Of a stretch of DNA of 64,000 nucleotides, positions 8,794 through 51,329 are shown piece after piece. The notes below the pieces were generated by a model, which saw nothing but the letters and a program-made list of their open reading frames with translations, was not told the DNA's origin and did not search any database. Each line of letters begins with the position of its first letter. The stretch's first letter is position 1. Source of the stretch: Escherichia coli (GTDB taxonomy: Bacteria; Pseudomonadota; Gammaproteobacteria; Enterobacterales; Enterobacteriaceae); NCBI RefSeq assembly GCF_046105845.1, contig NZ_CP151004.1; one strand, given 5' to 3'. The translations under genes and the position numbers were made by a program.

Positions 8794-9033
8794 TTTAACC
8801 GTCCTGTTTCGTGTTGCATCTGCGTTGACTGCACATACTCACTCTGGTCACTTACTTATGTAAGCTCCCGGAGATTCGTAAGTTTGTCAACTTGCTGAAA
8901 CCCGAAACAGTTAGGTTAAAGATAACAAGATATTAGAATCAGGCCGGGGCGTATCGCGCTCCGTAAACACGGTCGTACATCCAGCCGGTAGCCTGGTTCC
9001 TTGCATTGAGTGATGTACGGAGTTTATAGAGCA

Positions 9034-15675: not shown

Positions 15676-16452
15676 ATGTCCGAAACAAAAAACGAACTTG
15701 AAGATCTGCTGAAAAAAGCAGCAATCGAACCGGCGCACCGCCCGGCCTTTTTCCGTACTCTACTGGAATCCACCGTCTGGGTGCCGGGTACGGCGGCGCA
15801 GGGCGAGGCTGTGGTTGAAGATAGCGCGCTTGATTTACAGCACTGGGAAAAAGAAGACGGCACCAGCGTCATTCCTTTTTTTACCTCGTTAGAAGCACTT
15901 CAACAGGCGGTTGAAGACGAACAGGCATTTGTCGTAATGCCCGTTCGCACATTGTTTGAGATGACCCTTGGCGAAACGCTCTTCCTTAATGCCAAACTGC
16001 CAACCGGTAAAGAATTTATGCCGCGTGAAATCAGTTTGTTGATTGGTGAAGAAGGAAATCCGCTGAGCAGCCAGGAAGTACTGGAGGGCGGTGAATCGCT
16101 GATATTATCGGAAGTCGCAGAGCCACCAGCACAAATGATTGATTCTCTCACCACCTTATTTAAAACTATTAAGCCGGTGAAGCGTGCTTTTATTTGTTCA
16201 ATTAAAGAGAACGAAGAGGCACAGCCTAATTTACTTATTGGCATTGAAGCCGATGGTGATATCGAAGAAATTATTCAGGCGGCGGGAAGTGTAGCGACCG
16301 ATACATTACCTGGCGATGAACCCATCGATATTTGTCAAGTGAAAAAAGGGGAAAAAGGAATTAGCCACTTTATTACCGAACATATTGTGCCATTCTATGA
16401 ACGTCGCTGGGGTGGTTTTTTGCGTGACTTTAAACAGAACCGGATAATCTAA
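15676..16452 (+). CDS. sseB: enhanced serine sensitivity protein SseB
   Basis: Start at MSETKNELEDLL (258 aa); synteny downstream of pepB. Confidence 0.9.
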   Translation: MSETKNELEDLLKKAAIEPAHRPAFFRTLLESTVWVPGTAAQGEAVVEDSALDLQHWEKEDGTSVIPFFTSLEALQQAVEDEQAFVVMPVRTLFEMTLGETLFLNAKLPTGKEFMPREISLLIGEEGNPLSSQEVLEGGESLILSEVAEPPAQMIDSLTTLFKTIKPVKRAFICSIKENEEAQPNLLIGIEADGDIEEIIQAAGSVATDTLPGDEPIDICQVKKGEKGISHFITEHIVPFYERRWGGFLRDFKQNRII

Positions 16453-16753
16453 AATATGCCGCCCCAAAGGGCGGCATTCGGGCTTACCTGCTGTTCTGAA
16501 GGTTGTTAACCACCAATAAATTGTTGCCGGAGAGATTCCGGTTATTATTTACCTCGGTTAACAGCGCACCAGAAACAATAAGTACGATACAAAAGCACCG
16601 TATCTTCATTGTGCGGTCCATGCGAAGACCGCATCACGACAGCACCACTGGCGATATTGCCGCGATAGCAAGCGCTGAGACGCGCGTGCCCTAACGGTCG
16701 CGGAACATCCTTTCCTTAAGCCAGCGCCCGCTTGCGAGACGGCGGAAAGGTCC
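16450..16753 (-). ncRNA. candidate RyfA-like transcript (putative type I toxin mRNA)
   Basis: Minus-strand -10-like TATTAT (16766-16761) and minus-strand terminator hairpin ATGCCGCCC-tttg-GGGCGGCAT + ATTTT (16477-16451) delimit ~304 nt; position matches the sseA-sseB intergenic sRNA locus known in enterobacteria (from memory). Confidence 0.4.
16484..16609 (-). CDS. candidate small hydrophobic protein (41 aa; 45 aa from ATG 16621)
   Basis: Minus-strand ORF MKIRCFCIVLIVSGALLTEVNNNRNLSGNNLLVVNNLQNSR with one predicted TM-like segment; weak SD; in frame with an upstream strongly SD-preceded mini-ORF (16708-16691) separated by two stops. Confidence 0.3.
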   Translation of the reverse strand: MKIRCFCIVLIVSGALLTEVNNNRNLSGNNLLVVNNLQNSR

Positions 16754-16797
16754 GCAGTGGATAATACACTAACAGAACAATAATAACTCTCTTTTGC

Positions 16798-16930
16798 TTG
16801 ACAAAAAGAGGGTTACTGGCGAGTATTGTCTCCGCTGAGACGCGCTTGCATTACTACGGTAATACAACCTGCTGGAAAGGCCGCGAACCGGACCAGCAAC
16901 AAAAAACCGCCTGATTTTGGCGGTTTTTTG
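16798..16930 (+). ncRNA. candidate small RNA unit 1 (promoter to intrinsic terminator; antitoxin-like)
   Basis: Perfect -35 TTGACA (16798-16803), 17-bp spacer, GAGTAT (16821-16826); terminator ACCGCC-tgatttt-GGCGGT + T6 (16901-16930); 5' end 16833-16845 identical to plus strand 16673-16685. Confidence 0.4.
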
Positions 16931-17073
16931 TTGTTTAAAGAAAATGAAATTACACGTTTAAGTAATATCTTTTACCAGTTAGTATATTTTAATATTAAGC
17001 GGGATTTTTTTATATTTGTCTGAATTCGGACTGATAAGCCAAATGAATTCAAAATCTATCCTTTTTTATCTAC

Positions 17074-28748: not shown

Positions 28749-29867
28749 ATGCATAACCAGGCTCCAATTCAACGTAGAAAATCAACACGTATTTACGTTG
28801 GGAATGTGCCGATTGGCGATGGTGCTCCCATCGCCGTACAGTCCATGACCAATACGCGCACGACAGACGTCGAAGCAACGGTCAATCAAATCAAGGCGTT
28901 GGAACGTGTTGGCGCTGATATCGTCCGTGTCTCCGTACCGACGATGGACGCGGCAGAAGCGTTCAAACTCATCAAACAGCAGGTTAACGTGCCGCTGGTG
29001 GCTGACATCCATTTCGACTATCGCATTGCGCTGAAAGTAGCGGAATACGGCGTCGATTGTCTGCGTATTAACCCTGGCAATATCGGTAATGAAGAGCGTA
29101 TTCGCATGGTGGTTGACTGTGCGCGCGATAAAAACATTCCGATCCGTATTGGCGTTAACGCCGGATCGCTGGAAAAAGATCTGCAAGAAAAGTATGGCGA
29201 ACCGACGCCGCAGGCGTTGCTGGAATCCGCCATGCGTCATGTTGATCATCTCGATCGCCTGAACTTCGATCAGTTCAAAGTCAGCGTGAAAGCGTCAGAC
29301 GTCTTCCTCGCTGTTGAGTCTTATCGTTTGCTGGCAAAACAGATCGATCAGCCGCTGCATCTGGGGATCACCGAAGCGGGTGGTGCGCGCAGCGGGGCGG
29401 TTAAATCCGCCATTGGTTTAGGTCTGCTGCTGTCTGAAGGCATCGGCGACACGCTGCGCGTATCGCTGGCGGCCGATCCGGTCGAAGAGATCAAAGTCGG
29501 TTTCGATATTTTGAAATCGCTGCGTATCCGTTCGCGAGGGATCAACTTCATCGCCTGCCCGACCTGTTCGCGTCAGGAATTTGATGTTATCGGTACGGTT
29601 AACGCGCTGGAGCAACGCCTGGAAGATATCATCACTCCAATGGACGTTTCGATTATCGGCTGCGTGGTGAATGGCCCAGGTGAGGCGCTGGTTTCTACAC
29701 TCGGCGTCACCGGCGGCAACAAGAAAAGCGGCCTCTATGAAGATGGCGTGCGCAAAGACCGTCTGGACAACAACGATATGATCGACCAGCTGGAAGCACG
29801 CATTCGTGCGAAAGCCAGTCAGCTGGACGAAGCGCGTCGAATTGACGTTCAGCAGGTTGAAAAATAA
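28749..29867 (+). CDS. ispG: 4-hydroxy-3-methylbut-2-en-1-yl diphosphate synthase
   Basis: 372 aa; [4Fe-4S] Cys ligands (CPTCSR ... GCVVNGPGE). Confidence 0.95.
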
Positions 29868-29977
29868 TAACGTGATGGGAAGCGCCTCGCTTCCCGTGTA
29901 TGATTGAACCCGCATGGCTCCCGAAACATTGAGGGAAGCGTTGAGGGTTCATTTTTATATTCAGAAAGAGAATAAAC

Positions 29978-39913: not shown

Positions 39914-39980
39914 ATGGGTGAATAAAGTTTGCGGAAAACACGCTGAGAAAATAGAAAAGCGTCAATGAAGGGACATAGCA

Positions 39981-41261
39981 ATGGCGATTAACGGAGAGGA
40001 CGGTGTTAGTGCAGTCACCGTGGATGAACTACTCAAGCAAGGCCTTCGGATACCGAACTATCAACGCCCATACAGTTGGGAAGTATCGACCGCTCTACAA
40101 CTGGTGGATGATCTTAGCGAAGCTCTTCGAGATACCGAAAGAAAAGATATTCCCTATGTTTTGGGTGCAATCATTCTTCACGATGATGGTGAGTATCTCA
40201 ATGTAGTCGACGGACAGCAACGTCTGCTGACTTTGCGAATGATTCTTGCGGCCTTAGATCCGATAAATCATCAGATTTCGGTGTCTGGTAACAGCGAAAC
40301 TCCTGTCTCCCTGGTTTGGATAGAGCTTCAAAGGCGCCTGTCGCAGTTGGAAGATAAAAAAGAATTTTTGGATTTTATCTGTCACAAATGTCAGTTGGTG
40401 CGTATTGTGACGGACGATATTGATGAGGCATTTCGTGTCTTTGATTCCCAGAACTATCGCGGCAAACCGCTTGCCCCTCATGACTTGCTCAAAGCACACC
40501 ACCTCCGCGAAATGCACGATGAGTCCGCTGCTATGAAAGTGGCTGTCGTTGAGGCTTGGGAAGCCGTAAATGATGAGGATCTGGACAGGCTTTTTTCTAC
40601 TTTTTTATACCGGATATCCAAGTGGTCACGAGGCGAAAGCTCGCTCGAATTTGCTATTCGGGACATCGGGATGTTTAAGGGAATTTCATCACGATCCCAC
40701 AGATCATTTTCGCCAAATCTGCGATATCACCTTGCAGCACAAGCCGCTATGCCACTTCTAAGTGCATGGGCGGTGTCCTCTACACATGATGCACGAAATG
40801 CCGGGCGCAGCCGCTTTCAGCTTGATGCCCCGATAATCGCTGGGCGCTCATTTTTCGAGATGGTGACATTCATGCTTGACGAATTGAAGATACTGGAAAA
40901 AGAGGTTATCGACAGAGGTTTCAAAAACTTTGGCCCATCTCAAAGTCGCTACCGCTACGTGTACGAATTGTTCATTGCCGCGCTGCTTTGCTATACAAAC
41001 AAGTTTGGCGATGAAGATGTGGATGAAGTGCGAAATAGATTATTCGCATGGGCATATGCCTTGCGGGTCGAGTTACTTCGTGTGCAATTTGTATCTGCTG
41101 ACAACCGAGCTCGAGGTAAAAACGATGCAAATAAATCGCCTTTTGTTTTGCTACGCAACGCGATGACTGGAAGTGTTGTCCGCAAACTTCCAATAGCAAG
41201 TCAGCCATACAACGATAACCACGAAAAGGAACTCGTTGCTTTTATCAAGGGGCTGCAATGA
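39981..41261 (+). CDS. DUF262 (ParB/Srx-like NTP-binding nuclease-family N-terminal domain) protein, no DUF1524
   Basis: Motifs IPNYQRPYSW (40050-40079), DGQQRL (40209-40226), FRVFDSQNYRGKPLAPHDLLKAH; SD AAGGGA upstream; 426 aa. Confidence 0.85.
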   Translation: MAINGEDGVSAVTVDELLKQGLRIPNYQRPYSWEVSTALQLVDDLSEALRDTERKDIPYVLGAIILHDDGEYLNVVDGQQRLLTLRMILAALDPINHQISVSGNSETPVSLVWIELQRRLSQLEDKKEFLDFICHKCQLVRIVTDDIDEAFRVFDSQNYRGKPLAPHDLLKAHHLREMHDESAAMKVAVVEAWEAVNDEDLDRLFSTFLYRISKWSRGESSLEFAIRDIGMFKGISSRSHRSFSPNLRYHLAAQAAMPLLSAWAVSSTHDARNAGRSRFQLDAPIIAGRSFFEMVTFMLDELKILEKEVIDRGFKNFGPSQSRYRYVYELFIAALLCYTNKFGDEDVDEVRNRLFAWAYALRVELLRVQFVSADNRARGKNDANKSPFVLLRNAMTGSVVRKLPIASQPYNDNHEKELVAFIKGLQ

Positions 41262-43210
41262 GCAAGAAGGAGTTGAGACCCGAACTGATAACAGTAGGCA
41301 AGCTATTCACGGGCTATTATCTGATTCCTATTTATCAACGGAACTATGCTTGGCGGGCCGAACAGATTGAGCAACTTATCAGCGATATTCAAGGCTCGGT
41401 GGTTGGGGGCCAGGACGACTATTTTCTTGGGAACCTTGTTGTAATCAAGCGGGGTAGAGAGGACGAGTTCGAGGTCATAGATGGACAACAACGACTTACA
41501 ACCCTCTATCTGCTTCTGACCTTCCTGGAGCAAGACGGTGAGGGTGGGAAGCTGTCGATTGGCCATGCAGGCCACTTGCAATATGAGTCGCGCGCACGGG
41601 CAACGGAAGCCCTGCGGCGAGTAGCACAGGAGGCGGCTAAGGGGCACGTCCGACCGCAGGGCTCCACGAGTAATGCAGATGCTGGCATCCATGAAGGCTA
41701 CAGCATCATCAATCAGTTCTTCAAACAAAATGAAACCCTTAATCGCTCACGCGAAAAATTCTCCGATTTCTTGCTAAAGAAGGTTACTGTCGTCCGTGCC
41801 TCGCTGCCACCCAATACCGACCTCAATCGCTACTTCGAGATCATGAACACTCGTGGGCAGCAACTCAAGCAGGTTGATATTGTTAAGGCTCGCCTGATGA
41901 GCAAGCTGCCCAATCAATATGAACGCGAATGCTTCGCGTGGGTTTGGGATGCCTGTGCTGACATGGATTCTTATGTCCAGATGTCTCTGACCCGTGGTGA
42001 CACCAGTTTACGAAACAAAGTATTTGGCGATGAATGGTCCTGGCTGGAGGTGACCAGCTTCGCGTCGCTAATGGAAAGTCGTCCGCAATCCGACATCAGT
42101 TCATTAAGGCAATCCTCCGAAGGGGTATCGTTGTCCTTGGATGAGGCGTTGTCAAAATACGCTAAAGAGATCGAGTCAAATTCCACTGAAGACGAGGGCA
42201 ACGAGCGGTTTCGTTCGACTATTGAGTTTCCGGCCTTTCTGCTACACGTTCTAAGAATTATGAAAGGCGATGAGGTCGAAGACGAAGGCCAGCTTGACGA
42301 CAAGCGCCTCATCAAGTCATTTGACGACGCCGTAAATAATGTACCCGATGCTAAAGCCGATTGGGTGCGTAGCTTTGCATTTATGCTTCTTAAGTGCCGT
42401 AACCTCTTCGATGGCTTCATCTTGAAGCGTCAATTCACGGCGAACATCGGTGACGATGGCGATTGGTCTCTCCAGCGATTGAAGAAAGGCGGTGCGGACA
42501 AGAAGCCAGCCCCGACGTACATCCATGTTTTCTCGGCCAGCAATGGAAACTTGGAGGAGGACAGCGGTGCTGACCCACATACCCGAGATGTATTGTTGCT
42601 TCAGTCCATGCTTCGGATTACCTACACTTCTCCGCGAACGATGCACTGGATTACCAAAGTTCTTCGCTGGCTATCCGTTAAAGCCCCTCAAGACGCGAAA
42701 CATGCGGATCTTGCCGATTTGTTGAAGGGGTATGCCCGCAGCAAGGTTAAAGAGACATTCCCCTTTGAGGAAGATCAGCAACCACAAGGGTTTGGTATCA
42801 GCCGTATCGTCTTTTCATACCTCGACTATCTTCTGTTGAGTGATTCCTCAAAACGAGATTTCAAATTTCAGTTCAGAACTTCCATTGAGCACTTTTATCC
42901 ACAGCATCCGGACAAAGAACAGTCGGGCGCGGCTGTTTCAGGTTCTAGCCTTAACCTGCTTGGCAACCTCGCGCTCGTAAGCGTCAGCGCGAACTCAAAA
43001 TTCAGCAATAGCCTTCCCAGAGCGAAGGCCGAAAACTTCAAGGATACGATTGAACTTCAAAGTCCCAAGCTCAAGAGAATGGCGGAAATCGCTCGAAATA
43101 CAAGCTGGGACGATCAGCAGATAACAGCACATCATGAAGAGATGGTGACATTGCTTCGTGATGATGTAAGTCTGGTGGAGGCAAGCGGAAGATCCTACCC
43201 GGGGCGTTGA
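41258..43210 (+). CDS. GmrSD-like fusion protein: N-terminal DUF262 + C-terminal DUF1524 (His-Me finger/HNH-like endonuclease)
   Basis: N-term IPIYQRNYAW, DGQQRL (41480-), FEIMNTRGQQL...DIVKARL; C-term SIEHFYPQH (EH at 42887-42892) and LLGNLALVSVSAN; 650 aa; ATGA start/stop overlap with upstream gene. Confidence 0.85.
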   Translation: MSKKELRPELITVGKLFTGYYLIPIYQRNYAWRAEQIEQLISDIQGSVVGGQDDYFLGNLVVIKRGREDEFEVIDGQQRLTTLYLLLTFLEQDGEGGKLSIGHAGHLQYESRARATEALRRVAQEAAKGHVRPQGSTSNADAGIHEGYSIINQFFKQNETLNRSREKFSDFLLKKVTVVRASLPPNTDLNRYFEIMNTRGQQLKQVDIVKARLMSKLPNQYERECFAWVWDACADMDSYVQMSLTRGDTSLRNKVFGDEWSWLEVTSFASLMESRPQSDISSLRQSSEGVSLSLDEALSKYAKEIESNSTEDEGNERFRSTIEFPAFLLHVLRIMKGDEVEDEGQLDDKRLIKSFDDAVNNVPDAKADWVRSFAFMLLKCRNLFDGFILKRQFTANIGDDGDWSLQRLKKGGADKKPAPTYIHVFSASNGNLEEDSGADPHTRDVLLLQSMLRITYTSPRTMHWITKVLRWLSVKAPQDAKHADLADLLKGYARSKVKETFPFEEDQQPQGFGISRIVFSYLDYLLLSDSSKRDFKFQFRTSIEHFYPQHPDKEQSGAAVSGSSLNLLGNLALVSVSANSKFSNSLPRAKAENFKDTIELQSPKLKRMAEIARNTSWDDQQITAHHEEMVTLLRDDVSLVEASGRSYPGR

Positions 43211-43415: not shown

Positions 43416-43436
43416 TTTGACCCTGCACTATGAATG

Positions 43437-43470
43437 AACAAAACCCTCTGTTACTACAGAGGGTTTTTTA
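43437..43470. terminator. bidirectional intrinsic terminator (ancestral guaA / yfgI)
   Basis: AACAAAA-CCCTCTG-ttacta-CAGAGGG-TTTTTT; A-run upstream and T-run downstream. Confidence 0.8.
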
Positions 43471-43507
43471 TCTTCAAGAATTATAGGCTTGAAGTTACTT
43501 ACATCGA

Positions 43508-44047
43508 TTAATTAAACCAGCTGTCCGATTTGTTCTCTTCTGCTTTGCCCACGCTTTTCATCAGATCGCGACCGCCTTCAGTCATATTTCTGTTTGCGTC
43601 AGCTTCAGATTGCACCACATCGGTTTGCGCAGCTTTGTGCTTCAGTTCCTGATCGATAAATTCGTTTTCTCGCTTAACGCGGGCTTCTTCTTTCGCCAGC
43701 GCCAGTTTTTGTTTCTGAATCTCTAAGCTGCGTAGCTCATCTTCATAACTTTGATCGCGTTTTTTGTCCGCAGTGGCTTCGGCATCCAGTTTATCCTGAC
43801 GAGCTTTCTTATTTGCCGCTGCCGTTGCCGCTCTTTTGTTAGCGGCGGCCTGGGCGTTTGCGCGACGTTGCTTCTCTTGCTGGATTTCCCTGTTGCGCTC
43901 CGCGACCCATTCGTCATGCTGCCTTTGCTCTTCATTTTTACCTTGCTGTTCCGCTTCTGCGACAGCAGAGAGTTGATCCTGCAATGATGAGGCGATAGCC
44001 GGATAGCTTAAGGAGGCTAAGATGGCGCAAAGAAAAACTTTCTTCAT
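43508..44047 (-). CDS. yfgI: DUF4223-type periplasmic coiled-coil protein YfgI
   Basis: 179 aa; signal peptide; Lys/Glu/Gln-rich; synteny. Confidence 0.85.
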   Translation of the reverse strand: MKKVFLCAILASLSYPAIASSLQDQLSAVAEAEQQGKNEEQRQHDEWVAERNREIQQEKQRRANAQAAANKRAATAAANKKARQDKLDAEATADKKRDQSYEDELRSLEIQKQKLALAKEEARVKRENEFIDQELKHKAAQTDVVQSEADANRNMTEGGRDLMKSVGKAEENKSDSWFN

Positions 44048-44062
44048 GACTCCTCCTGATTA

Positions 44063-44581
44063 TTAGCTCTTTTCAGGACATTTGGTATTTGGCTGAATAC
44101 GCGTTTCGTTATACGTCGTGGTAATAACAACGGCTAAACCTGTCGTAAACTGGCACTCTTTACCCACCTGGGTGGAGGTATACACTTTGGTGCCTTCCTT
44201 ATACGTTAGAGAAACACCTTCTACTAAGGTTTTATCATTCACCATAGAACCCGCTGCCGCGCCAACAGCTCCGCCGCCAACTGCACCTGCAGTCGTTCCG
44301 GAATTGCTGCCAGACCCCACGTTGTGGCCGATTACACCGCCAGCGACTGCACCAATAAGCGCGCCGAAGGCTTGTGCGTTTCGTTTATTTTGGGAGTTGT
44401 CTACGACAACTTTTGCGGGAAGAATGGAAATAATATTAACGGTTTTAGTTTCTTGTTTGGTATTCAGTTGATCGGTTTGATAAACATCGGCGGCATGATC
44501 ATCAGCATTTGACTGGCATCCTGCCAGAGTGAATGACGCTAACATTGCCAAAGGCAGAAGACATTTTTTAAATTTCATCAC
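44063..44581 (-). CDS. yfgH: outer membrane lipoprotein (glycine-zipper) YfgH
   Basis: 172 aa; lipobox LAGC; Gly-rich GxxxG repeats. Confidence 0.85.
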   Translation of the reverse strand: MMKFKKCLLPLAMLASFTLAGCQSNADDHAADVYQTDQLNTKQETKTVNIISILPAKVVVDNSQNKRNAQAFGALIGAVAGGVIGHNVGSGSNSGTTAGAVGGGAVGAAAGSMVNDKTLVEGVSLTYKEGTKVYTSTQVGKECQFTTGLAVVITTTYNETRIQPNTKCPEKS

Positions 44582-44891
44582 TATTCCTTGTTATACACAT
44601 TACGAAAAATAAGATATTTAAGATCATCAAAAGAGGAAAGTAAATGTATTGCGTATAAAGGAATAGATTAAATTTATTAAAATTCATGTGGAAAATAATT
44701 TATAAAAATACATCATTAAAACATATGTATTAATTTTATATTTATTTCGCAGCCAAACAGGATAAACATCAGTCAGGACAAAGACGTAAAATTTAAGATG
44801 AAAGAATATCTGCCGCTTTGATAATCCCAAAGAGCAAAAGCATCCGACAGCGAGGTGCCGTTATGTTCTGTGAAAGTGGAGAAGGTAACCG

Positions 44892-45083
44892 CTAACGTTG
44901 TACCGGTGATTCGACGGAGAGTGTGGATTGCTGAGCTTCTTTTTTGCTCTGATGGTGCTGCCATGCACCGACGGACGAGTAGATAAAACGGCCAAAGAAG
45001 AAGATAAAGCTGATGAGCAGTACGATACGGGTCATGCGACTGTTAAATCGGTGTCGTTTTCGCATACTGGTTGCCTGACTCAC
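44892..45083 (-). CDS. yfgG: small membrane protein YfgG
   Basis: 63 aa; basic N-terminus then one TM; synteny. Confidence 0.75.
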   Translation of the reverse strand: MSQATSMRKRHRFNSRMTRIVLLISFIFFFGRFIYSSVGAWQHHQSKKEAQQSTLSVESPVQR

Positions 45084-45434
45084 AAAAGGTTCCTTGAAGT
45101 ATGTCCCACGCTGTGGACGGTACTTACATTAAGGCACAACAGGACAAAATGGTCAATTCTTCGTTATGTAAAAAAGCGTCAGTGGATACATATTTTAATG
45201 TTATGGAAGTTAATTTAATTATTTACAATGATGATGTAATAATGATGAATTAACATGATAAACGTAATAATTCATTAATCAGGGTTATTTTGTTTGATAT
45301 ATATCAATTGGAACTTTCATATGACACTTAGAATCAATGCTCTCTATAGTGATGAATAATCATCATTCGAAGTCAGGTGGGATGCCTGTCTGAATACACC
45401 TCCTTCAGGATGTGGGGGATTCTGCTGAGCATCT

Positions 45435-47678
45435 ATGAAACTGAATGCAACTTATATAAAAATACGTGATAAATGGTGGGGGCTTCCGCTGTTCCTGCCT
45501 TCTTTAATCTTGCCCATTTTCGCCCACATTAATACTTTCGCGCATATTTCTTCCGGTGAGGTTTTTCTCTTTTATCTGCCTCTGGCTCTGATGATCAGCA
45601 TGATGATGTTTTTCAGCTGGGCGGCATTGCCAGGGATCGCCTTAGGGATTTTTGTCCGCAAATATGCAGAGCTGGGTTTTTACGAAACGCTCTCATTAAC
45701 GGCTAATTTTATTATCATTATCATTCTCTGTTGGGGCGGTTACAGGGTCTTTACTCCCCGGCGTAACAACGTTTCACATGGTGATACCCGTTTAATTTCC
45801 CAGCGTATATTCTGGCAGATTGTGTTTCCTGCAACGCTGTTTCTGATACTTTTCCAGTTTGCTGCGTTTGTAGGATTACTGGCGAGCAGAGAAAATCTGG
45901 TCGGCGTCATGCCTTTTAACCTCGGGACCTTAATCAATTATCAGGCCTTACTGGTGGGCAATCTGATTGGTGTCCCGCTGTGCTACTTCATCATTCGGGT
46001 GGTGCGAAATCCGTTTTATTTACGTAGCTATTATTCGCAATTAAAACAGCAGGTTGATGTCAAAGTCACCAAAAAAGAGTTCGCGCTCTGGCTACTGGCA
46101 TTAGGTGCGTTGTTGTTGCTGTTATGCATGCCGTTAAATGAAAAAAGCACAATTTTTAGCACCAATTATACCCTGTCATTATTGCTGCCCCTGATGATGT
46201 GGGGAGCGATGCGCTATGGTTATAAGCTGATTTCGCTGCTCTGGGCGGTCGTGTTGATGATCAGCATCCACAGCTATCAAAATTACATTCCCATTTATCC
46301 TGGCTATACCACACAGCTGACCATAACCTCCTCCAGTTATCTGGTATTCTCTTTTATTGTCAATTATATGGCTGTACTGGCAACCCGTCAGAGAGCGGTA
46401 GTCAGACGCATTCAGCGGCTTGCGTATGTGGACCCGGTGGTTCATCTGCCAAATGTTCGCGCCCTGAATCGCGCGTTGCGTGATGCCCCCTGGTCTGCGC
46501 TTTGTTATTTACGCATCCCTGGCATGGAAATGCTGGTTAAGAACTATGGCATCATGCTGCGGATTCAATACAAGCAAAAACTTTCTCACTGGCTGTCACC
46601 CTTGCTGGAACCGGGTGAGGATGTTTATCAGCTTTCGGGTAACGATCTCGCGCTGCGACTGAATACAGAATCGCACCAGGAGCGCATTACCGAACTGGAT
46701 AGCCATCTCAAGCAATTTCGTTTCTTTTGGGATGGAATGCCGATGCAACCGCAGATTGGCGTCAGTTACTGCTATGTGCGCTCGCCAGTGAATCATATCT
46801 ACCTGTTGCTGGGAGAGCTAAATACGGTCGCCGAGCTTTCCATCGTGACCAACGCCCCGGAAAATATGCAGCGTCGCGGGGCAATGTATTTGCAACGCGA
46901 ATTGAAAGATAAAGTCGCGATGATGAATCGGCTACAGCAGGCGCTGGAACACAACCATTTTTTCCTGATGGCCCAGCCGATTACCGGTATGCGTGGCGAT
47001 GTCTACCATGAAATTCTTCTGCGCATGAAAGGTGAGAATGATGAACTGATCAGCCCCGACAGCTTCTTGCCGGTCGCGCACGAATTTGGTTTATCGTCGA
47101 GTATCGACATGTGGGTCATTGAGCATACGCTGCAATTTATGGCTGAAAACAGAGCGAAGATGCCCGCTCACCGTTTTGCGATTAATCTGTCGCCAACCTC
47201 GGTATGTCAGGCTCGTTTTCCCGTTGAAGTCAGTCAGCTGCTGGCTAAATATCAAATTGAAGCGTGGCAACTTATTTTTGAAGTCACCGAAAGTAATGCT
47301 CTGACAAATGTTAAGCAGGCGCAAATCACCTTGCAGCATCTTCAGGAATTAGGCTGCCAGATTGCGATTGATGATTTCGGCACCGGCTACGCCAGCTATG
47401 CGCGGCTTAAAAATGTGAATGCCGATTTGCTTAAAATTGACGGCAGTTTTATCCGCAATATTGTGTCAAATAGTCTGGATTATCAGATAGTGGCGTCGAT
47501 TTGCCACCTGGCGCGAATGAAGAAAATGCGGGTAGTGGCAGAGTACGTTGAAAACGAAGAGATCCGCGAGGCGGTGCTCTCTTTGGGGATCGATTATATG
47601 CAGGGTTATCTTATTGGTAAGCCGCAACCGTTAATTGATACGCTGAATGAAATCGAACCCATTCGCGAAAGTGCCTGA
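45435..47678 (+). CDS. pdeF: cyclic di-GMP phosphodiesterase (MASE1 - degenerate GGDEF - EAL)
   Basis: 747 aa; N-terminal polytopic membrane domain; C-terminal EAL motifs (DDFGTG, EYVENEE). Confidence 0.9.
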   Translation: MKLNATYIKIRDKWWGLPLFLPSLILPIFAHINTFAHISSGEVFLFYLPLALMISMMMFFSWAALPGIALGIFVRKYAELGFYETLSLTANFIIIIILCWGGYRVFTPRRNNVSHGDTRLISQRIFWQIVFPATLFLILFQFAAFVGLLASRENLVGVMPFNLGTLINYQALLVGNLIGVPLCYFIIRVVRNPFYLRSYYSQLKQQVDVKVTKKEFALWLLALGALLLLLCMPLNEKSTIFSTNYTLSLLLPLMMWGAMRYGYKLISLLWAVVLMISIHSYQNYIPIYPGYTTQLTITSSSYLVFSFIVNYMAVLATRQRAVVRRIQRLAYVDPVVHLPNVRALNRALRDAPWSALCYLRIPGMEMLVKNYGIMLRIQYKQKLSHWLSPLLEPGEDVYQLSGNDLALRLNTESHQERITELDSHLKQFRFFWDGMPMQPQIGVSYCYVRSPVNHIYLLLGELNTVAELSIVTNAPENMQRRGAMYLQRELKDKVAMMNRLQQALEHNHFFLMAQPITGMRGDVYHEILLRMKGENDELISPDSFLPVAHEFGLSSSIDMWVIEHTLQFMAENRAKMPAHRFAINLSPTSVCQARFPVEVSQLLAKYQIEAWQLIFEVTESNALTNVKQAQITLQHLQELGCQIAIDDFGTGYASYARLKNVNADLLKIDGSFIRNIVSNSLDYQIVASICHLARMKKMRVVAEYVENEEIREAVLSLGIDYMQGYLIGKPQPLIDTLNEIEPIRESA

Positions 47679-47683
47679 ATAAT

Positions 47684-47710
47684 GCGGGCCGACATTTCTC
47701 GTCGGCCCGC
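47684..47710. terminator. stem-loop between convergent pdeF and ppx
   Basis: GCGGGCCGAC-atttctc-GTCGGCCCGC, 10-bp perfect stem; weak U-tract. Confidence 0.5.
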
Positions 47711-47716
47711 AAAGCA

Positions 47717-51329
<3,613 letters not shown>

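What the first reader, a model, noticed from the sequence alone, without database searches (positions are those of the whole stretch)
44582..45434. AT-rich spacers flanking the tiny yfgG gene upstream of pdeF
Two long (~310 and ~350 bp) strongly AT-rich intergenic regions surround the 63-aa yfgG. Such tracts are typical nucleoid-protein (H-NS/Fis) bound regulatory regions and could hold unannotated small RNAs or small proteins controlling the c-di-GMP phosphodiesterase gene pdeF.
Basis: inference. Interest (0 to 1): 0.2.

Follow-up and report, generated by a model that had tools for sequence, protein, structure and literature searches.

The report
H-NS-coated control DNA flanking yfgG
The two AT-rich gaps around the small E. 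coli gene yfgG are ordinary promoter regions already shown to be coated by the silencing protein H-NS, with no hidden small RNA or protein gene, although the pdeF messenger's leader carries a conserved, undescribed hairpin structure that probably masks its start codon.

Summary
Observation confirmed: 44582-44891 (310 bp, 30% GC) and 45084-45434 (351 bp, 34% GC) are the AT-richest stretches of this 64-kb E. coli window. Interpretation partly supported.

Published K-12 ChIP-chip puts one H-NS domain over both spacers. pdeF becomes oxygen-regulated only in a Δhns ΔstpA strain.

The yfgG-pdeF spacer is an old divergent control region. Its length is 346-356 bp in 61 of 78 loci from 20 genera. It holds the yfgG σ70/σS promoter and the known class II FNR promoter of pdeF.

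The yfgG-yfgH spacer does not serve pdeF. It travels with the yfgHI gene pair, which sits at a variable site between yfgG and guaA, and only its roughly 70 bp next to yfgH are conserved.

No small RNA was found (Rfam). The 50-aa "hypothetical protein" that RefSeq places in the pdeF spacer fails coding tests. The spacer ORFs next to yfgH are broken in other strains.

One new item: the last 65 nt of the pdeF leader (45371-45437) are highly conserved. They contain a hairpin that covaries across genera. They are also predicted to pair with nt -6 to -1 before the AUG. This element is not in Rfam and has no known regulator.

Overall the finding is ordinary and largely already explained.

The parts
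44582..44891 (.). Spacer 1 (yfgG stop to yfgH start), 310 bp, 30% GC. Lineage-specific DNA that accompanies the yfgHI pair.
   Evidence: yfgHI was found only in Escherichia and one Pseudocitrobacter MAG among 80 loci. A spacer of 27-31% GC and 274-325 bp accompanies yfgHI wherever the pair occurs.
44794..44838 (-). Candidate yfgG terminator: a 12-bp hairpin (44838..44809) followed by a U-rich tail.
   Evidence: RNA fold, (z-score only -0.92). A weaker terminator-like site lies at 44860..44845. Inferred, not shown.
44650..44793 (.). Distal AT-rich core of spacer 1. It evolves fast: composition is kept but sequence is not.
   Evidence: Alignment A2: E. albertii, Escherichia sp. MOD1 and Pseudocitrobacter differ in sequence and carry indels here. 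The 39-aa ORF has an internal stop in E. coli L004. The 48-aa ORF has stops in L004, L005 and L007. The FlhDC gSELEX peak maps near 44762.
44582..44649 (-). Conserved yfgHI promoter-proximal block and 5' UTR: TTTACT (44644..44639), 17 nt, TTAAAT (44621..44616), then SD AAGGAA.
   Evidence: This is the only part of spacer 1 conserved from E. coli to Pseudocitrobacter. yfgHI is treated as an operon in PMC9962212 and PMC11619404. The hexamer assignment is my inference.
44892..45083 (-). yfgG, 63 aa (DUF2633; Ni/Co stress response).
   Evidence: Substitutions fall mainly on third codon positions (1/0/9).
45084..45434 (.). Spacer 2, the divergent yfgG/pdeF control region, 351 bp, 34% GC.
   Evidence: Its length is 346-356 bp in 61 of 78 loci from 20 genera. 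Conserved blocks are shown.
45084..45121 (-). yfgG 5' UTR (~38 nt): SD AAGGAA and a 5'-proximal hairpin (45103-45118).
   Evidence: Published yfgG TSS 2627275 (U00096.2) maps to window ~45121. The anaerobic σ70 ChIP-seq peak 2627279 maps to ~45117. Hairpin arms are conserved or co-vary; the fold is weak.
45128..45156 (-). yfgG promoter: -35 TTGACC (45156..45151), 17 nt, -10 CTTAAT (45133..45128).
   Evidence: These are the same hexamers as in genomic SELEX (PMC3946193). A σS ChIP peak lies here. About 90% of 78 loci are identical to E. coli in these bases.
45101..45253 (+). PGAP 'hypothetical protein' WP_000017552.1 (50 aa). Judged a spurious ORF lying antisense over the yfgG promoter and 5' UTR.
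   Evidence: Annotated in RefSeq strains but not in curated K-12. The start codon is lost in Escherichia sp. E1V33. The frame contains stops in every one of the 13 sampled non-Escherichia loci, including Citrobacter, Salmonella, Klebsiella and Enterobacter. Substitutions by codon position are 5/6/3 and 5/10/7, against 1/0/9 for yfgG and 15/2/80 for pdeF.
45166..45226 (.). Conserved blocks of unknown role between the two promoters: ATGTAAAA 45166-73, GCGTCAG 45176-82, ACAT-N6-ATGT 45188-45201, TATTTAC 45220-26.
   Evidence: They are candidate transcription-factor sites; PgrR gSELEX and BasR EMSA hit this spacer, but neither site has been mapped.
45294..45307 (+). FNR box TTGATATATATCAA.
   Evidence: Matches the published box at -41.5. 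The same motif lies at the FNR ChIP peak in Myers 2013. The half-sites are conserved in about 90-100% of 78 loci.
45329..45334 (+). pdeF -10 element TAGAAT; TSS inferred at ~45341-45342.
   Evidence: published -10; conserved. An IS5 insertion at -104 of yfgF (window ~45331) was reported in a gallium-evolved line. A second σ70-like pair, ATGACA-18-TATAGT, lies at 45321-45350.
45348..45367 (+). Leader hairpin P1 (AGUGAUGA-AUAA-UCAUCAUU).
   Evidence: A hairpin is predicted at the same position in most sampled genera with unrelated sequence, for example CCGCG...CGCGG in Klebsiella and Kluyvera. Median z-score is -0.97.
45371..45437 (+). Conserved pdeF leader element. P2: GGAUGCC (45380-86) pairs with GCAUCU (45429-34, nt -6..-1). 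P3: CCUCC (45399-403) pairs with GGGGG (45414-18), with a near-invariant GGA in the loop (45408-10). A mini-ORF AUG CCU GUC UGA lies at 45382-93.
   Evidence: Covariance-model hit of 43.8 bits, E=4.8e-10, the only hit in the window and one per locus elsewhere. RNAalifold recovers P3 but not P2. P2 is in the MFE of 42 of 72 leaders. Rfam has no match.

Best explanation
Both spacers are H-NS-coated regulatory DNA of ordinary kinds, with different histories and different clients.

Spacer 2 (45084-45434) is an ancient, length-constrained divergent control region. On the minus strand it holds a σ70/σS promoter that drives yfgG from about 45121. [quoted passage not shown] An H-NS/StpA filament over the AT-rich DNA limits FNR access, so pdeF is made only when silencing is relieved under anaerobiosis. 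These steps are shown in K-12 by others.

The ~94-nt pdeF leader then adds a post-transcriptional gate; this step is inferred. A 5' hairpin P1 is followed by a conserved 65-nt element. In that element GGAUGCC pairs with the six bases before the AUG and with the weak GAG Shine-Dalgarno. The pairing encloses a covarying hairpin P3 that displays a GGA loop. By default this should lower translation initiation until some factor opens it.

Spacer 1 (44582-44891) has nothing to do with pdeF. It is the upstream region of the yfgHI pair, which was inserted between yfgG and the guaA terminator in the Escherichia lineage. It carries the yfgG terminator, a fast-evolving AT-rich stretch that H-NS covers, and a conserved ~70-bp promoter and 5' UTR block for yfgHI.

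Neither spacer contains a small RNA gene or a real small-protein gene.
For: Composition and coordinates.

H-NS: ChIP-chip regions span both spacers. FNR occupancy is listed as 0.35 and 1.68, which I read as wild type versus Δhns ΔstpA. yfgF is O2-regulated only in that mutant. gSELEX carries an H-NS flag for this spacer.

Promoters: published FNR box and -10 were found at 45294-45307 and 45329-34 and are conserved in 78 loci. The yfgG hexamers, the σS and σ70 peaks and the TSS coincide at 45117-45156.

Ancient architecture: spacer 2 is 346-356 bp in 61 of 78 loci from 20 genera.

Spacer 1 history: yfgHI occurs only in Escherichia and one Pseudocitrobacter MAG. The yfgG-guaA gap ranges from 62 bp to over 3 kb, with the guaA terminator retained. 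Only the proximal block is conserved. An AT-rich spacer always accompanies yfgHI.

No hidden genes.

Leader: the covariance model hits only pdeF leaders. 87% of cells are paired against 32-58% in slid controls. There are 70 compensatory cells against 3-20. All 5 P3 pairs covary. P2 is in the MFE of 42 of 72 leaders, with median pair probability 0.82.
Against: All binding and expression data come from K-12 and from papers, not from this strain.

Myers Table S6 lists 'None' beside the FNR site in its last column, although Table S3's H-NS region covers it.

No mapped yfgHI promoter or TSS was found. No σ70 peak is listed inside spacer 1 in the anaerobic rows returned; Table S1 is truncated as stored.

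The H-NS nucleation motif scan was uninformative: 2 weak matches in spacer 1 and none in spacer 2.

Leader: P2 is almost invariant on both strands, so covariation cannot test it. RNAalifold prefers a local 3-bp hairpin over P2. The E. coli leader is no more stable than shuffles (z = -0.19). In Buttiauxella, L053 and L072, both P2 strands change without compensation. Alignment A5 was fitted to the model.
Confidence: 0.78

Rival explanations
1. One or both spacers encode an independent small RNA that acts on pdeF or other targets.
For: The only other comparably AT-rich spacer in the window holds ryfA and IS128. Promoter-like hexamers occur on the + strand of spacer 1.
Against: No Rfam match at E<=10 beyond noise or at gathering score. 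The promoter-like count equals the shuffle expectation, 4 against 4.1. No terminator pairs with those promoters. Spacer 1's interior is not conserved even within Escherichia. The conserved blocks of spacer 2 sit at promoter positions. No σ70 peak is listed inside spacer 1 in the rows returned.
Confidence: 0.05
2. The spacers encode real small proteins: the PGAP 50-aa ORF at 45101-45253, or the 39- and 48-aa ORFs of spacer 1.
For: RefSeq annotates WP_000017552.1 in all 11 full-length records listed across the ranking. The ORF is intact in E. coli proper.
Against: Substitutions are spread evenly over codon positions and nearly all change the amino acid: 10-12 changes in 50 residues, against 1-3 in 63 for yfgG over the same lineages. 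The start codon is lost in Escherichia sp. E1V33, and every one of the 13 sampled non-Escherichia loci has stop codons in the frame. The ORF lies antisense over the yfgG promoter, which accounts for its partial conservation. It is absent from curated K-12. The spacer 1 ORFs carry stops in other E. coli.
Confidence: 0.04
3. The conserved block downstream of the pdeF promoter is a DNA operator, not an RNA structure. The inverted repeat GGATGCC...GGCATCT would be two half-sites for a repressor bound at about +40 and +90.
For: Both arms are nearly invariant rather than covarying. In three lineages the arms change together without restoring pairing. BasR binds the yfgF promoter fragment by EMSA and represses it. 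PgrR is a gSELEX hit here. From my own knowledge, AGATGC/GCATCT resembles NsrR half-sites; I did not test this.
Against: P3 between the arms shows compensatory changes in all 5 pairs, which only RNA pairing explains. P1 keeps a hairpin with unrelated sequences. The 3' arm abuts the AUG. A spacing of ~42 bp between half-sites is unusual for a single operator.
Confidence: 0.15
4. The leader is a CsrA-controlled operator. CsrA would bind the GGA in the P3 loop and the GGA in GGAUGCC, opening or locking P2 and so setting pdeF translation.
For: Two GGA motifs lie 28 nt apart and are conserved in most of the 74 aligned leaders. One sits in a hairpin loop; in E. coli it reads CAGGAUGU. From my own knowledge, the CsrA SELEX consensus is RUACARGGAUGU, and CsrA controls other c-di-GMP enzymes (dgcZ, dgcT).
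Against: No yfgF or pdeF entry appears in the 13 held supplementary files of the E. coli CsrA CLIP-seq/RNA-seq study. No GGA overlaps the weak Shine-Dalgarno. No paper in the library treats yfgF as a CsrA target: the four that mention both are by title on other subjects and were not opened for this point.
Confidence: 0.12
5. The conserved core is a mini upstream ORF (AUG CCU GYC UGA at 45382-45393) whose translation modulates pdeF.
For: MP[VAT]* is present in 41 of 78 loci, and GUC to GCC keeps the frame and the stop. An AGG lies 4 nt upstream of the AUG.
Against: The ORF is not universal. In 13 loci the frame stays open as far as the pdeF AUG; in 8 of these it is in frame with pdeF. Other loci have 12-13-codon ORFs with no conserved peptide. 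The SD spacing is short. The AUG can be explained as part of the P2 arm.
Confidence: 0.08

Closest known systems
The yfgF (pdeF) class II FNR-dependent promoter of E. coli K-12 and S. Enteritidis (Lacey et al. 2010, as described in PMC3718329)
   Same: The FNR box (TTGATATATATCAA) and the -10 element (TAGAAT) are identical and at the expected spacing. It is the same locus.
   Different: Nothing at the promoter itself. My additions are that the box, the -10 and the whole 350-bp spacer length are conserved across 20 genera.
H-NS/StpA-occluded FNR sites and H-NS-silenced operons (Myers et al. 2013, PMC3688515)
   Same: AT-rich DNA lies under an extended H-NS ChIP region. FNR occupancy and O2-dependent expression appear or rise when hns and stpA are deleted.
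   Different: Spacer 2 is not recently acquired DNA. It is vertically inherited and conserved in length, so silencing here acts on a core-genome regulatory region. Spacer 1 fits the classic picture of an acquired islet better.
RBS-occluding mRNA leaders (RNA thermometers such as ROSE/fourU; CsrA- or sRNA-controlled leaders of c-di-GMP genes such as dgcZ/ydeH). Cited from my own knowledge.
   Same: A leader helix is predicted to cover the bases just before the AUG and the weak SD. A hairpin loop displays a GGA.
   Different: No Rfam family matches. No U-rich anti-SD strand and no GGA over the SD. The regulator or signal is unknown. The closing helix is conserved in sequence rather than covarying.
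The ryfA/IS128 AT-rich spacer in the same window (16451-17065)
   Same: It is the only other stretch of similar AT-richness.
   Different: That spacer scores 308 and 167 bits against Rfam sRNA models. The yfgG spacers score nothing.

Membership tests
H-NS-bound/silenced AT-rich region | AT content well above the genome average | tested here: met
   GC is 0.30 and 0.34 against 0.517 for the window. These are the lowest 0.27% and 0.69% of sliding windows.
H-NS-bound/silenced AT-rich region | H-NS occupancy in vivo | tested here: met
   Published K-12 ChIP-chip regions cover both spacers after coordinate conversion. The conversion is validated by the FNR motif position. Occupancy was not measured in this strain.
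H-NS-bound/silenced AT-rich region | Derepression or increased activator access when hns/stpA are removed | tested here: met
   FNR ChIP values 0.35 and 1.68, read as wild type and Δhns ΔstpA. yfgF is O2-regulated only in Δhns ΔstpA. This is shown for pdeF only; there are no data for yfgHI.
H-NS-bound/silenced AT-rich region | High-affinity nucleation motif (TCGATAAATT-like) | tested here: inconclusive
   Two matches with 2 mismatches in spacer 1 and none in spacer 2.
Class II FNR-activated promoter | TTGAT-N4-ATCAA centred near -41.5, with a -10 element at the right distance | tested here: met
   Box at 45294-45307 and TAGAAT at 45329-34. The centre plus 41.5 gives 45342.
Class II FNR-activated promoter | FNR binding in vivo | tested here: met
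   FNR ChIP-seq/chip peak at yfgF/yfgG with this motif. Literature data from K-12.
Small RNA gene | Match to a described family, or its own promoter plus terminator with conserved sequence or structure | tested here: not met
Small protein gene | ORF kept intact in relatives and substitutions biased to third codon positions | tested here: not met
Structured cis-regulatory mRNA leader | Sequence conservation above the flanks, confined to the 5' UTR of one gene family | tested here: met
   80-100% identity over 45372-45398 and 45427-45437, against 20-60% in neighbouring UTR and codons. The covariance model hits one site per locus.
Structured cis-regulatory mRNA leader | Base pairs supported by compensatory changes | tested here: inconclusive
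   P3: all 5 pairs covary. The P2 core is invariant, so uninformative; its extension shows UA/UG/CG exchange. RNAalifold does not recover P2.
Structured cis-regulatory mRNA leader | Effect on translation or mRNA level, and a defined signal | not testable with these tools
   Needs reporter fusions and structure probing.
CsrA-regulated leader | At least two GGA motifs, one in a hairpin loop and one overlapping the SD; CsrA crosslinking | tested here: not met
   Two conserved GGA motifs, one in the P3 loop. None lies over the SD, and the held CLIP supplements have no yfgF/pdeF entry.
Variable-site islet (yfgHI) with its own upstream region | Patchy presence among relatives, with conserved flanks at the insertion point | tested here: met
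   yfgHI occurs in Escherichia, one Pseudocitrobacter MAG and, by report, S. Typhi. The yfgG-guaA gap ranges from 62 bp to over 3 kb with the guaA terminator retained.

The most novel reading that the evidence does not exclude
The conserved 65-nt element at the end of the pdeF leader (45371-45437), together with hairpin P1, is an undescribed cis-regulatory RNA shared by Enterobacteriaceae. It would gate translation of the anaerobic c-di-GMP phosphodiesterase in response to a protein, an sRNA, temperature or a small ligand. That would be a third control layer on top of H-NS silencing and FNR activation.
Probability: 0.3. Interest if true: 0.55.

Novelty: already known. Interest (0 to 1): 0.22.

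Why it matters
Mostly housekeeping.

- It shows that a flagged AT-rich region is explained by published H-NS and FNR data.
- It shows that the yfgG-yfgH spacer belongs to the yfgHI pair at a variable chromosomal site, not to pdeF.
- It identifies a RefSeq "hypothetical protein" cluster (WP_000017552.1), propagated through E. coli genomes, as almost certainly not a gene.

The one forward-looking point is the pdeF leader. If its conserved structure really masks the start codon, PdeF output would be set at three levels: H-NS silencing, FNR activation and leader opening. That could explain why an FNR ChIP peak gives no FNR-dependent expression in wild-type cells. It would also give c-di-GMP researchers a defined 65-nt element to mutate.

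Tried and rejected
- **Rfam.** At E<=10 over 43-47 kb, the only hits were eukaryotic, plastid or leader-family noise. At gathering score there was nothing in the spacers.
- **RNAalifold on a plain MAFFT alignment of leaders**. It gave only a 3-bp invariant hairpin, because MAFFT misplaces gaps in P3. I therefore built a seed alignment and covariance model.
- **Thermodynamic stability of the E. coli leader.** Not significant (z = -0.19).
- **CsrA idea.** No yfgF or pdeF in the held supplements of PMC5694010.
- **An ArcA-like 11-bp direct-repeat reading of 45198-45225.** Withdrawn after re-indexing showed spacings of 9 and 13 bp.
- **H-NS motif scan.** Uninformative.
- **Assumed collinearity with strain VCSW7 for an intergenic GC census.** Failed: the window differs upstream of ~43.3 kb. 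I used sliding-window percentiles instead.
- **Papers not held or beyond the cap.** Lacey 2010, Thomason 2015 TSS tables, Kahramanoglou 2011 supplements and Melamed 2016 RIL-seq. I therefore have no direct TSS map or sRNA-interactome check for pdeF or yfgH.
- **Promoter and terminator consensus scan.** Counts equal the shuffle expectation.
Full report
**Identity and observation.** The window is Escherichia coli; 44400-45600 is 99.8% identical to strain VCSW7 and is present in 5424 of 5426 complete genomes.

The local gene map is:

| Gene | Coordinates | Strand |
|---|---|---|
| yfgI | 43508-44047 | - |
| yfgH | 44063-44581 | - |
| yfgG | 44892-45083 | - |
| pdeF (yfgF) | 45435-47678 | + |
| ppx | 47717-49258 | - |

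- Spacer 1 is 44582-44891, 310 bp, between yfgH and yfgG.
- Spacer 2 is 45084-45434, 351 bp, between yfgG and pdeF.

Their GC is 0.300 and 0.342, against 0.517 for the window. Local minima are 0.225 and 0.285. Only 0.27% and 0.69% of equally long sliding windows are as AT-rich. The only other comparably AT-rich stretch, at about 16.75-17.2 kb, contains the Rfam sRNAs ryfA and IS128.

**Spacer 2 is a known, multiply bound control region.** The published pdeF promoter is class II FNR-dependent, with box TTGAT-N4-ATCAA at -41.5 and -10 TAGAAT (PMC3718329).

- Both elements are present at 45294-45307 and 45329-45334, which places the TSS near 45341-45342.
- Genomic SELEX lists σ70 promoters ATGACA-18-TATAGT (toward yfgF) and TTGACC-17-CTTAAT (toward yfgG), with an H-NS flag (PMC3946193).
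- I find these at 45321-45350(+) and 45156..45128(-).
- A σS ChIP-seq peak with yfgG TSS 2627275 and a strong anaerobic σ70 ChIP-seq peak at 2627279 convert to window ~45121 and ~45117.
- That is 7 nt downstream of the CTTAAT hexamer.

The conversion from U00096.2 adds 1977 bp, which I take from my own knowledge of the two K-12 versions. It is validated by the FNR motif listed at 2627088, which lands on 45307-45308. Further reported binders of this spacer are PgrR by SELEX and BasR by EMSA, with 2.3-fold derepression in ΔbasSR. An IS5 insertion at -104 of yfgF, inside the -10 element, arose in a gallium-evolved line.

**H-NS.** The supplements of Myers et al. 2013 (PMC3688515) give H-NS ChIP-chip regions 2626274-2628408 (anaerobic) and 2624400-2628963 (aerobic).

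- Converted, these are window ~43988-46122 and ~43433-47996.
- Together they form one H-NS domain covering the 5' part of pdeF, spacer 2, yfgG, spacer 1 and yfgH.
- Table S7 lists FNR ChIP-chip values of 0.35 and 1.68 at yfgF/yfgG. I read these as wild type and Δhns ΔstpA, but did not see the column header.
- yfgF appears among FNR peaks without FNR-dependent expression in wild type (Table S9).
- It also appears among genes that are O2-regulated only in Δhns ΔstpA (Table S11, +O2/-O2 = 0.23).

I found no Fis data. One inconsistency remains: Table S6 shows "None" in its last column beside this FNR site.

**Spacer 2 is ancient.** I collected 80 yfgG loci from 20 enterobacterial genera. pdeF lies divergently upstream of yfgG in all 78 loci whose contig reaches it.

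- The spacer length is 346-356 bp in 61 of 78 loci.
- GC elsewhere is about 0.38-0.42, so E. coli is at the AT-rich end.

Conserved blocks, scored as the fraction of loci identical to E. coli:

- the yfgG SD;
- a 5'-UTR hairpin at 45103-45118;
- the yfgG -10 and -35;
- ATGTAAAA (45166-73), GCGTCAG (45176-82), ACAT-N6-ATGT (45188-45201) and TATTTAC (45220-26);
- the FNR half-sites;
- the pdeF -10;
- a very strongly conserved segment at the 3' end of the pdeF leader.

**Spacer 1 belongs to yfgHI, not pdeF.** yfgH and yfgI were found only in the Escherichia loci and one Pseudocitrobacter MAG. The literature adds S. Typhi, where the orthologues srgIL are SdiA-regulated.

- In other genera the distance from the yfgG stop to the convergent guaA stop ranges from 62 bp to over 3 kb.
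- The guaA-proximal terminator AAAAAACCCTCTG...CAGAGGGTTTT is retained. In K-12 it lies after yfgI.
- yfgHI plus spacer 1 is therefore cargo at a variable site.
- Wherever yfgHI occurs it is preceded by a spacer of 274-325 bp and 27-31% GC.
- Only the ~70 bp next to yfgH are conserved in sequence: TTTACT-17-TTAAAT, then SD AAGGAA. The remainder diverges with indels even within Escherichia.
- A hairpin with a U-rich tail at 44838-44794 may terminate yfgG.
- An FlhDC SELEX peak maps near 44762.
- The anaerobic rows of Table S1 returned by the search list no σ70 ChIP-seq peak in this spacer; the table is truncated as stored. This is consistent with silencing.

**No hidden genes.** Rfam finds nothing. 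Promoter-like and terminator-like counts equal the shuffle expectation.

RefSeq/PGAP annotates a 50-aa hypothetical protein (WP_000017552.1) at 45101-45253(+). Curated K-12 has none.

- The frame is intact only in E. coli and its closest relatives.
- It loses its ATG in Escherichia sp. E1V33.
- It contains stop codons in every one of the 13 sampled non-Escherichia loci, including Citrobacter, Salmonella, Klebsiella and Enterobacter.

Substitutions by codon position against the window:

| Sequence | Position 1/2/3 (one comparison) | Second comparison |
|---|---|---|
| 50-aa ORF | 5/6/3 | 5/10/7 |
| yfgG | 1/0/9 | |
| pdeF (first 900 nt) | 15/2/80 | |

The ORF lies antisense over the yfgG promoter and 5' UTR, which explains its partial conservation. 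The 39- and 48-aa ORFs of spacer 1 contain stops in other E. coli.

**The pdeF leader.** This is the one feature not already described.

- Individual folds of 78 leaders repeatedly give a closing helix, (U)GGAUGCC(UGY) with (R..)GCAUCU(A).
- Its 3' strand is nt -6 to -1, extending to the A of the AUG in leaders that begin with U.
- The helix encloses hairpin P3, typically ACCCU...AGGGU, whose loop carries a near-invariant GGA.
- A covariance model built from nine Klebsiella and Raoultella sequences finds one hit per locus, always at the pdeF leader.
- It finds a single hit in the window, 45371-45437, at 43.8 bits and E = 4.8e-10.

On the resulting 74-sequence alignment:

| Measure | Proposed structure | Partner-slid controls |
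|---|---|---|
| Cells paired | 87% | 32-58% |
| Cells with compensatory change | 70 | 3-20 |
| Covariation score | 0.213 | at most 0.06 |

All five P3 pairs covary. RNAalifold on the same alignment independently recovers P3, with 4 pairs, all showing compensatory changes. It does not recover the long-range helix.

- P2's core is nearly invariant on both strands, so covariation cannot test it.
- P2 is in the MFE of 42 of 72 leaders, with median pair probability 0.82 and 0.65 in E. coli.
- The E. coli leader is not unusually stable (z = -0.19).
- Three divergent lineages change both arms without compensation.
- Upstream, a hairpin P1 (45348-45367 in E. coli) is predicted at the same place in most sampled genera with unrelated sequences.
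- There is no good SD before the AUG (GAGCAUCUAUG).

My inference is that the leader occludes the initiation region and lowers PdeF synthesis until something opens it. Candidate openers are CsrA (two conserved GGA motifs, but no CLIP entry), an sRNA, temperature, or a ligand. All are untested. Two rivals remain:

- a DNA operator reading of the two arms;
- a mini-ORF, AUG CCU GYC UGA, present in 41 of 78 loci.

**Verdict.**

- The composition signal is real and the H-NS reading is right, but both were already documented for K-12.
- The sRNA and small-protein readings are not supported.
- Spacer 1 is mis-assigned to pdeF.
- The conserved pdeF leader structure is a modest, testable lead.

Noticed in passing
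window 39977-43210 (between guaA 38017-39594 and yfgI): Two adjacent DUF262-domain genes fill the guaA-yfgI junction. Only 51 of 5426 complete E. coli genomes share most of this arrangement. K-12 has 92 bp here and strain VCSW7 an ~18-kb element with integrase, RepA-helicase and TraJ/TrbJ/TrbL genes. The site looks like an integration hot spot carrying possible defence cargo.
   Followed up: partly
L008, L015, L037, L065, L028, L013, L030 versus L002 6867-6958: Across genera the yfgG-guaA gap ranges from 62 bp to over 3 kb with different cargo. A conserved bidirectional terminator (AAAAAACCCTCTG..CAGAGGGTTTT) always stays next to guaA.
   Followed up: partly
window 45101-45253 (+): RefSeq protein cluster WP_000017552.1 ('hypothetical protein', 50 aa) appears in every full-length RefSeq record listed, yet it shows no coding signature. 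It is probably a propagated mis-annotation.
   Followed up: yes
window 16451-17065 (-): The only other stretch as AT-rich as the yfgG spacers holds the known sRNAs ryfA (308 bits) and IS128 (167 bits). sroE (29867-29958) and the iscRS element (8923-9032) were also detected.
   Followed up: no
window 45166-45226: Four short blocks are conserved across about 20 genera between the yfgG -35 and the FNR box. One is the palindrome ACAT-N6-ATGT, which reads AACATTAATTAATGTT in Klebsiella and Kluyvera. No factor has been assigned to any of them.
   Followed up: partly
window 45065-45083 (-): The yfgG start is ambiguous. Many gene callers start at the ATG of Met7 (57 aa) rather than the GTG (63 aa). 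The residues MSQATS and an AAGGAA SD 6 nt upstream of the GTG are conserved across genera, which favours the 63-aa form.
   Followed up: partly
window 45103-45118 (- strand RNA): A small hairpin lies at the very 5' end of the yfgG mRNA. Its arms are conserved or co-vary (GTCC/GGAC in E. coli, CCC/GGG elsewhere). It may be an mRNA-stabilising 5' stem-loop.
   Followed up: no
L035, L042, L044, L051, L052, L056, L061, L062 (Enterobacter, Lelliottia, Huaxiibacter leaders): In these loci the AUG inside GGAUGCC is in frame with pdeF and free of stops for 17 codons. PdeF may therefore have an N-terminal extension or an alternative start there.
   Followed up: partly
L060 (CACSKA010000009.1); P0111: A contig labelled Chryseobacterium sp. 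18061 carries a typical enterobacterial pdeF-yfgG locus closely resembling that of Citrobacter sp. 18056 (L057). A YfgG protein is also labelled 'MAG: Acinetobacter sp.'. Both are likely mislabelling or contamination.
   Followed up: no
window ~45331: A published gallium-evolved K-12 population carried an IS5 insertion at -104 of yfgF. That position is inside the pdeF -10 element, in the H-NS-covered AT-rich DNA.
   Followed up: no
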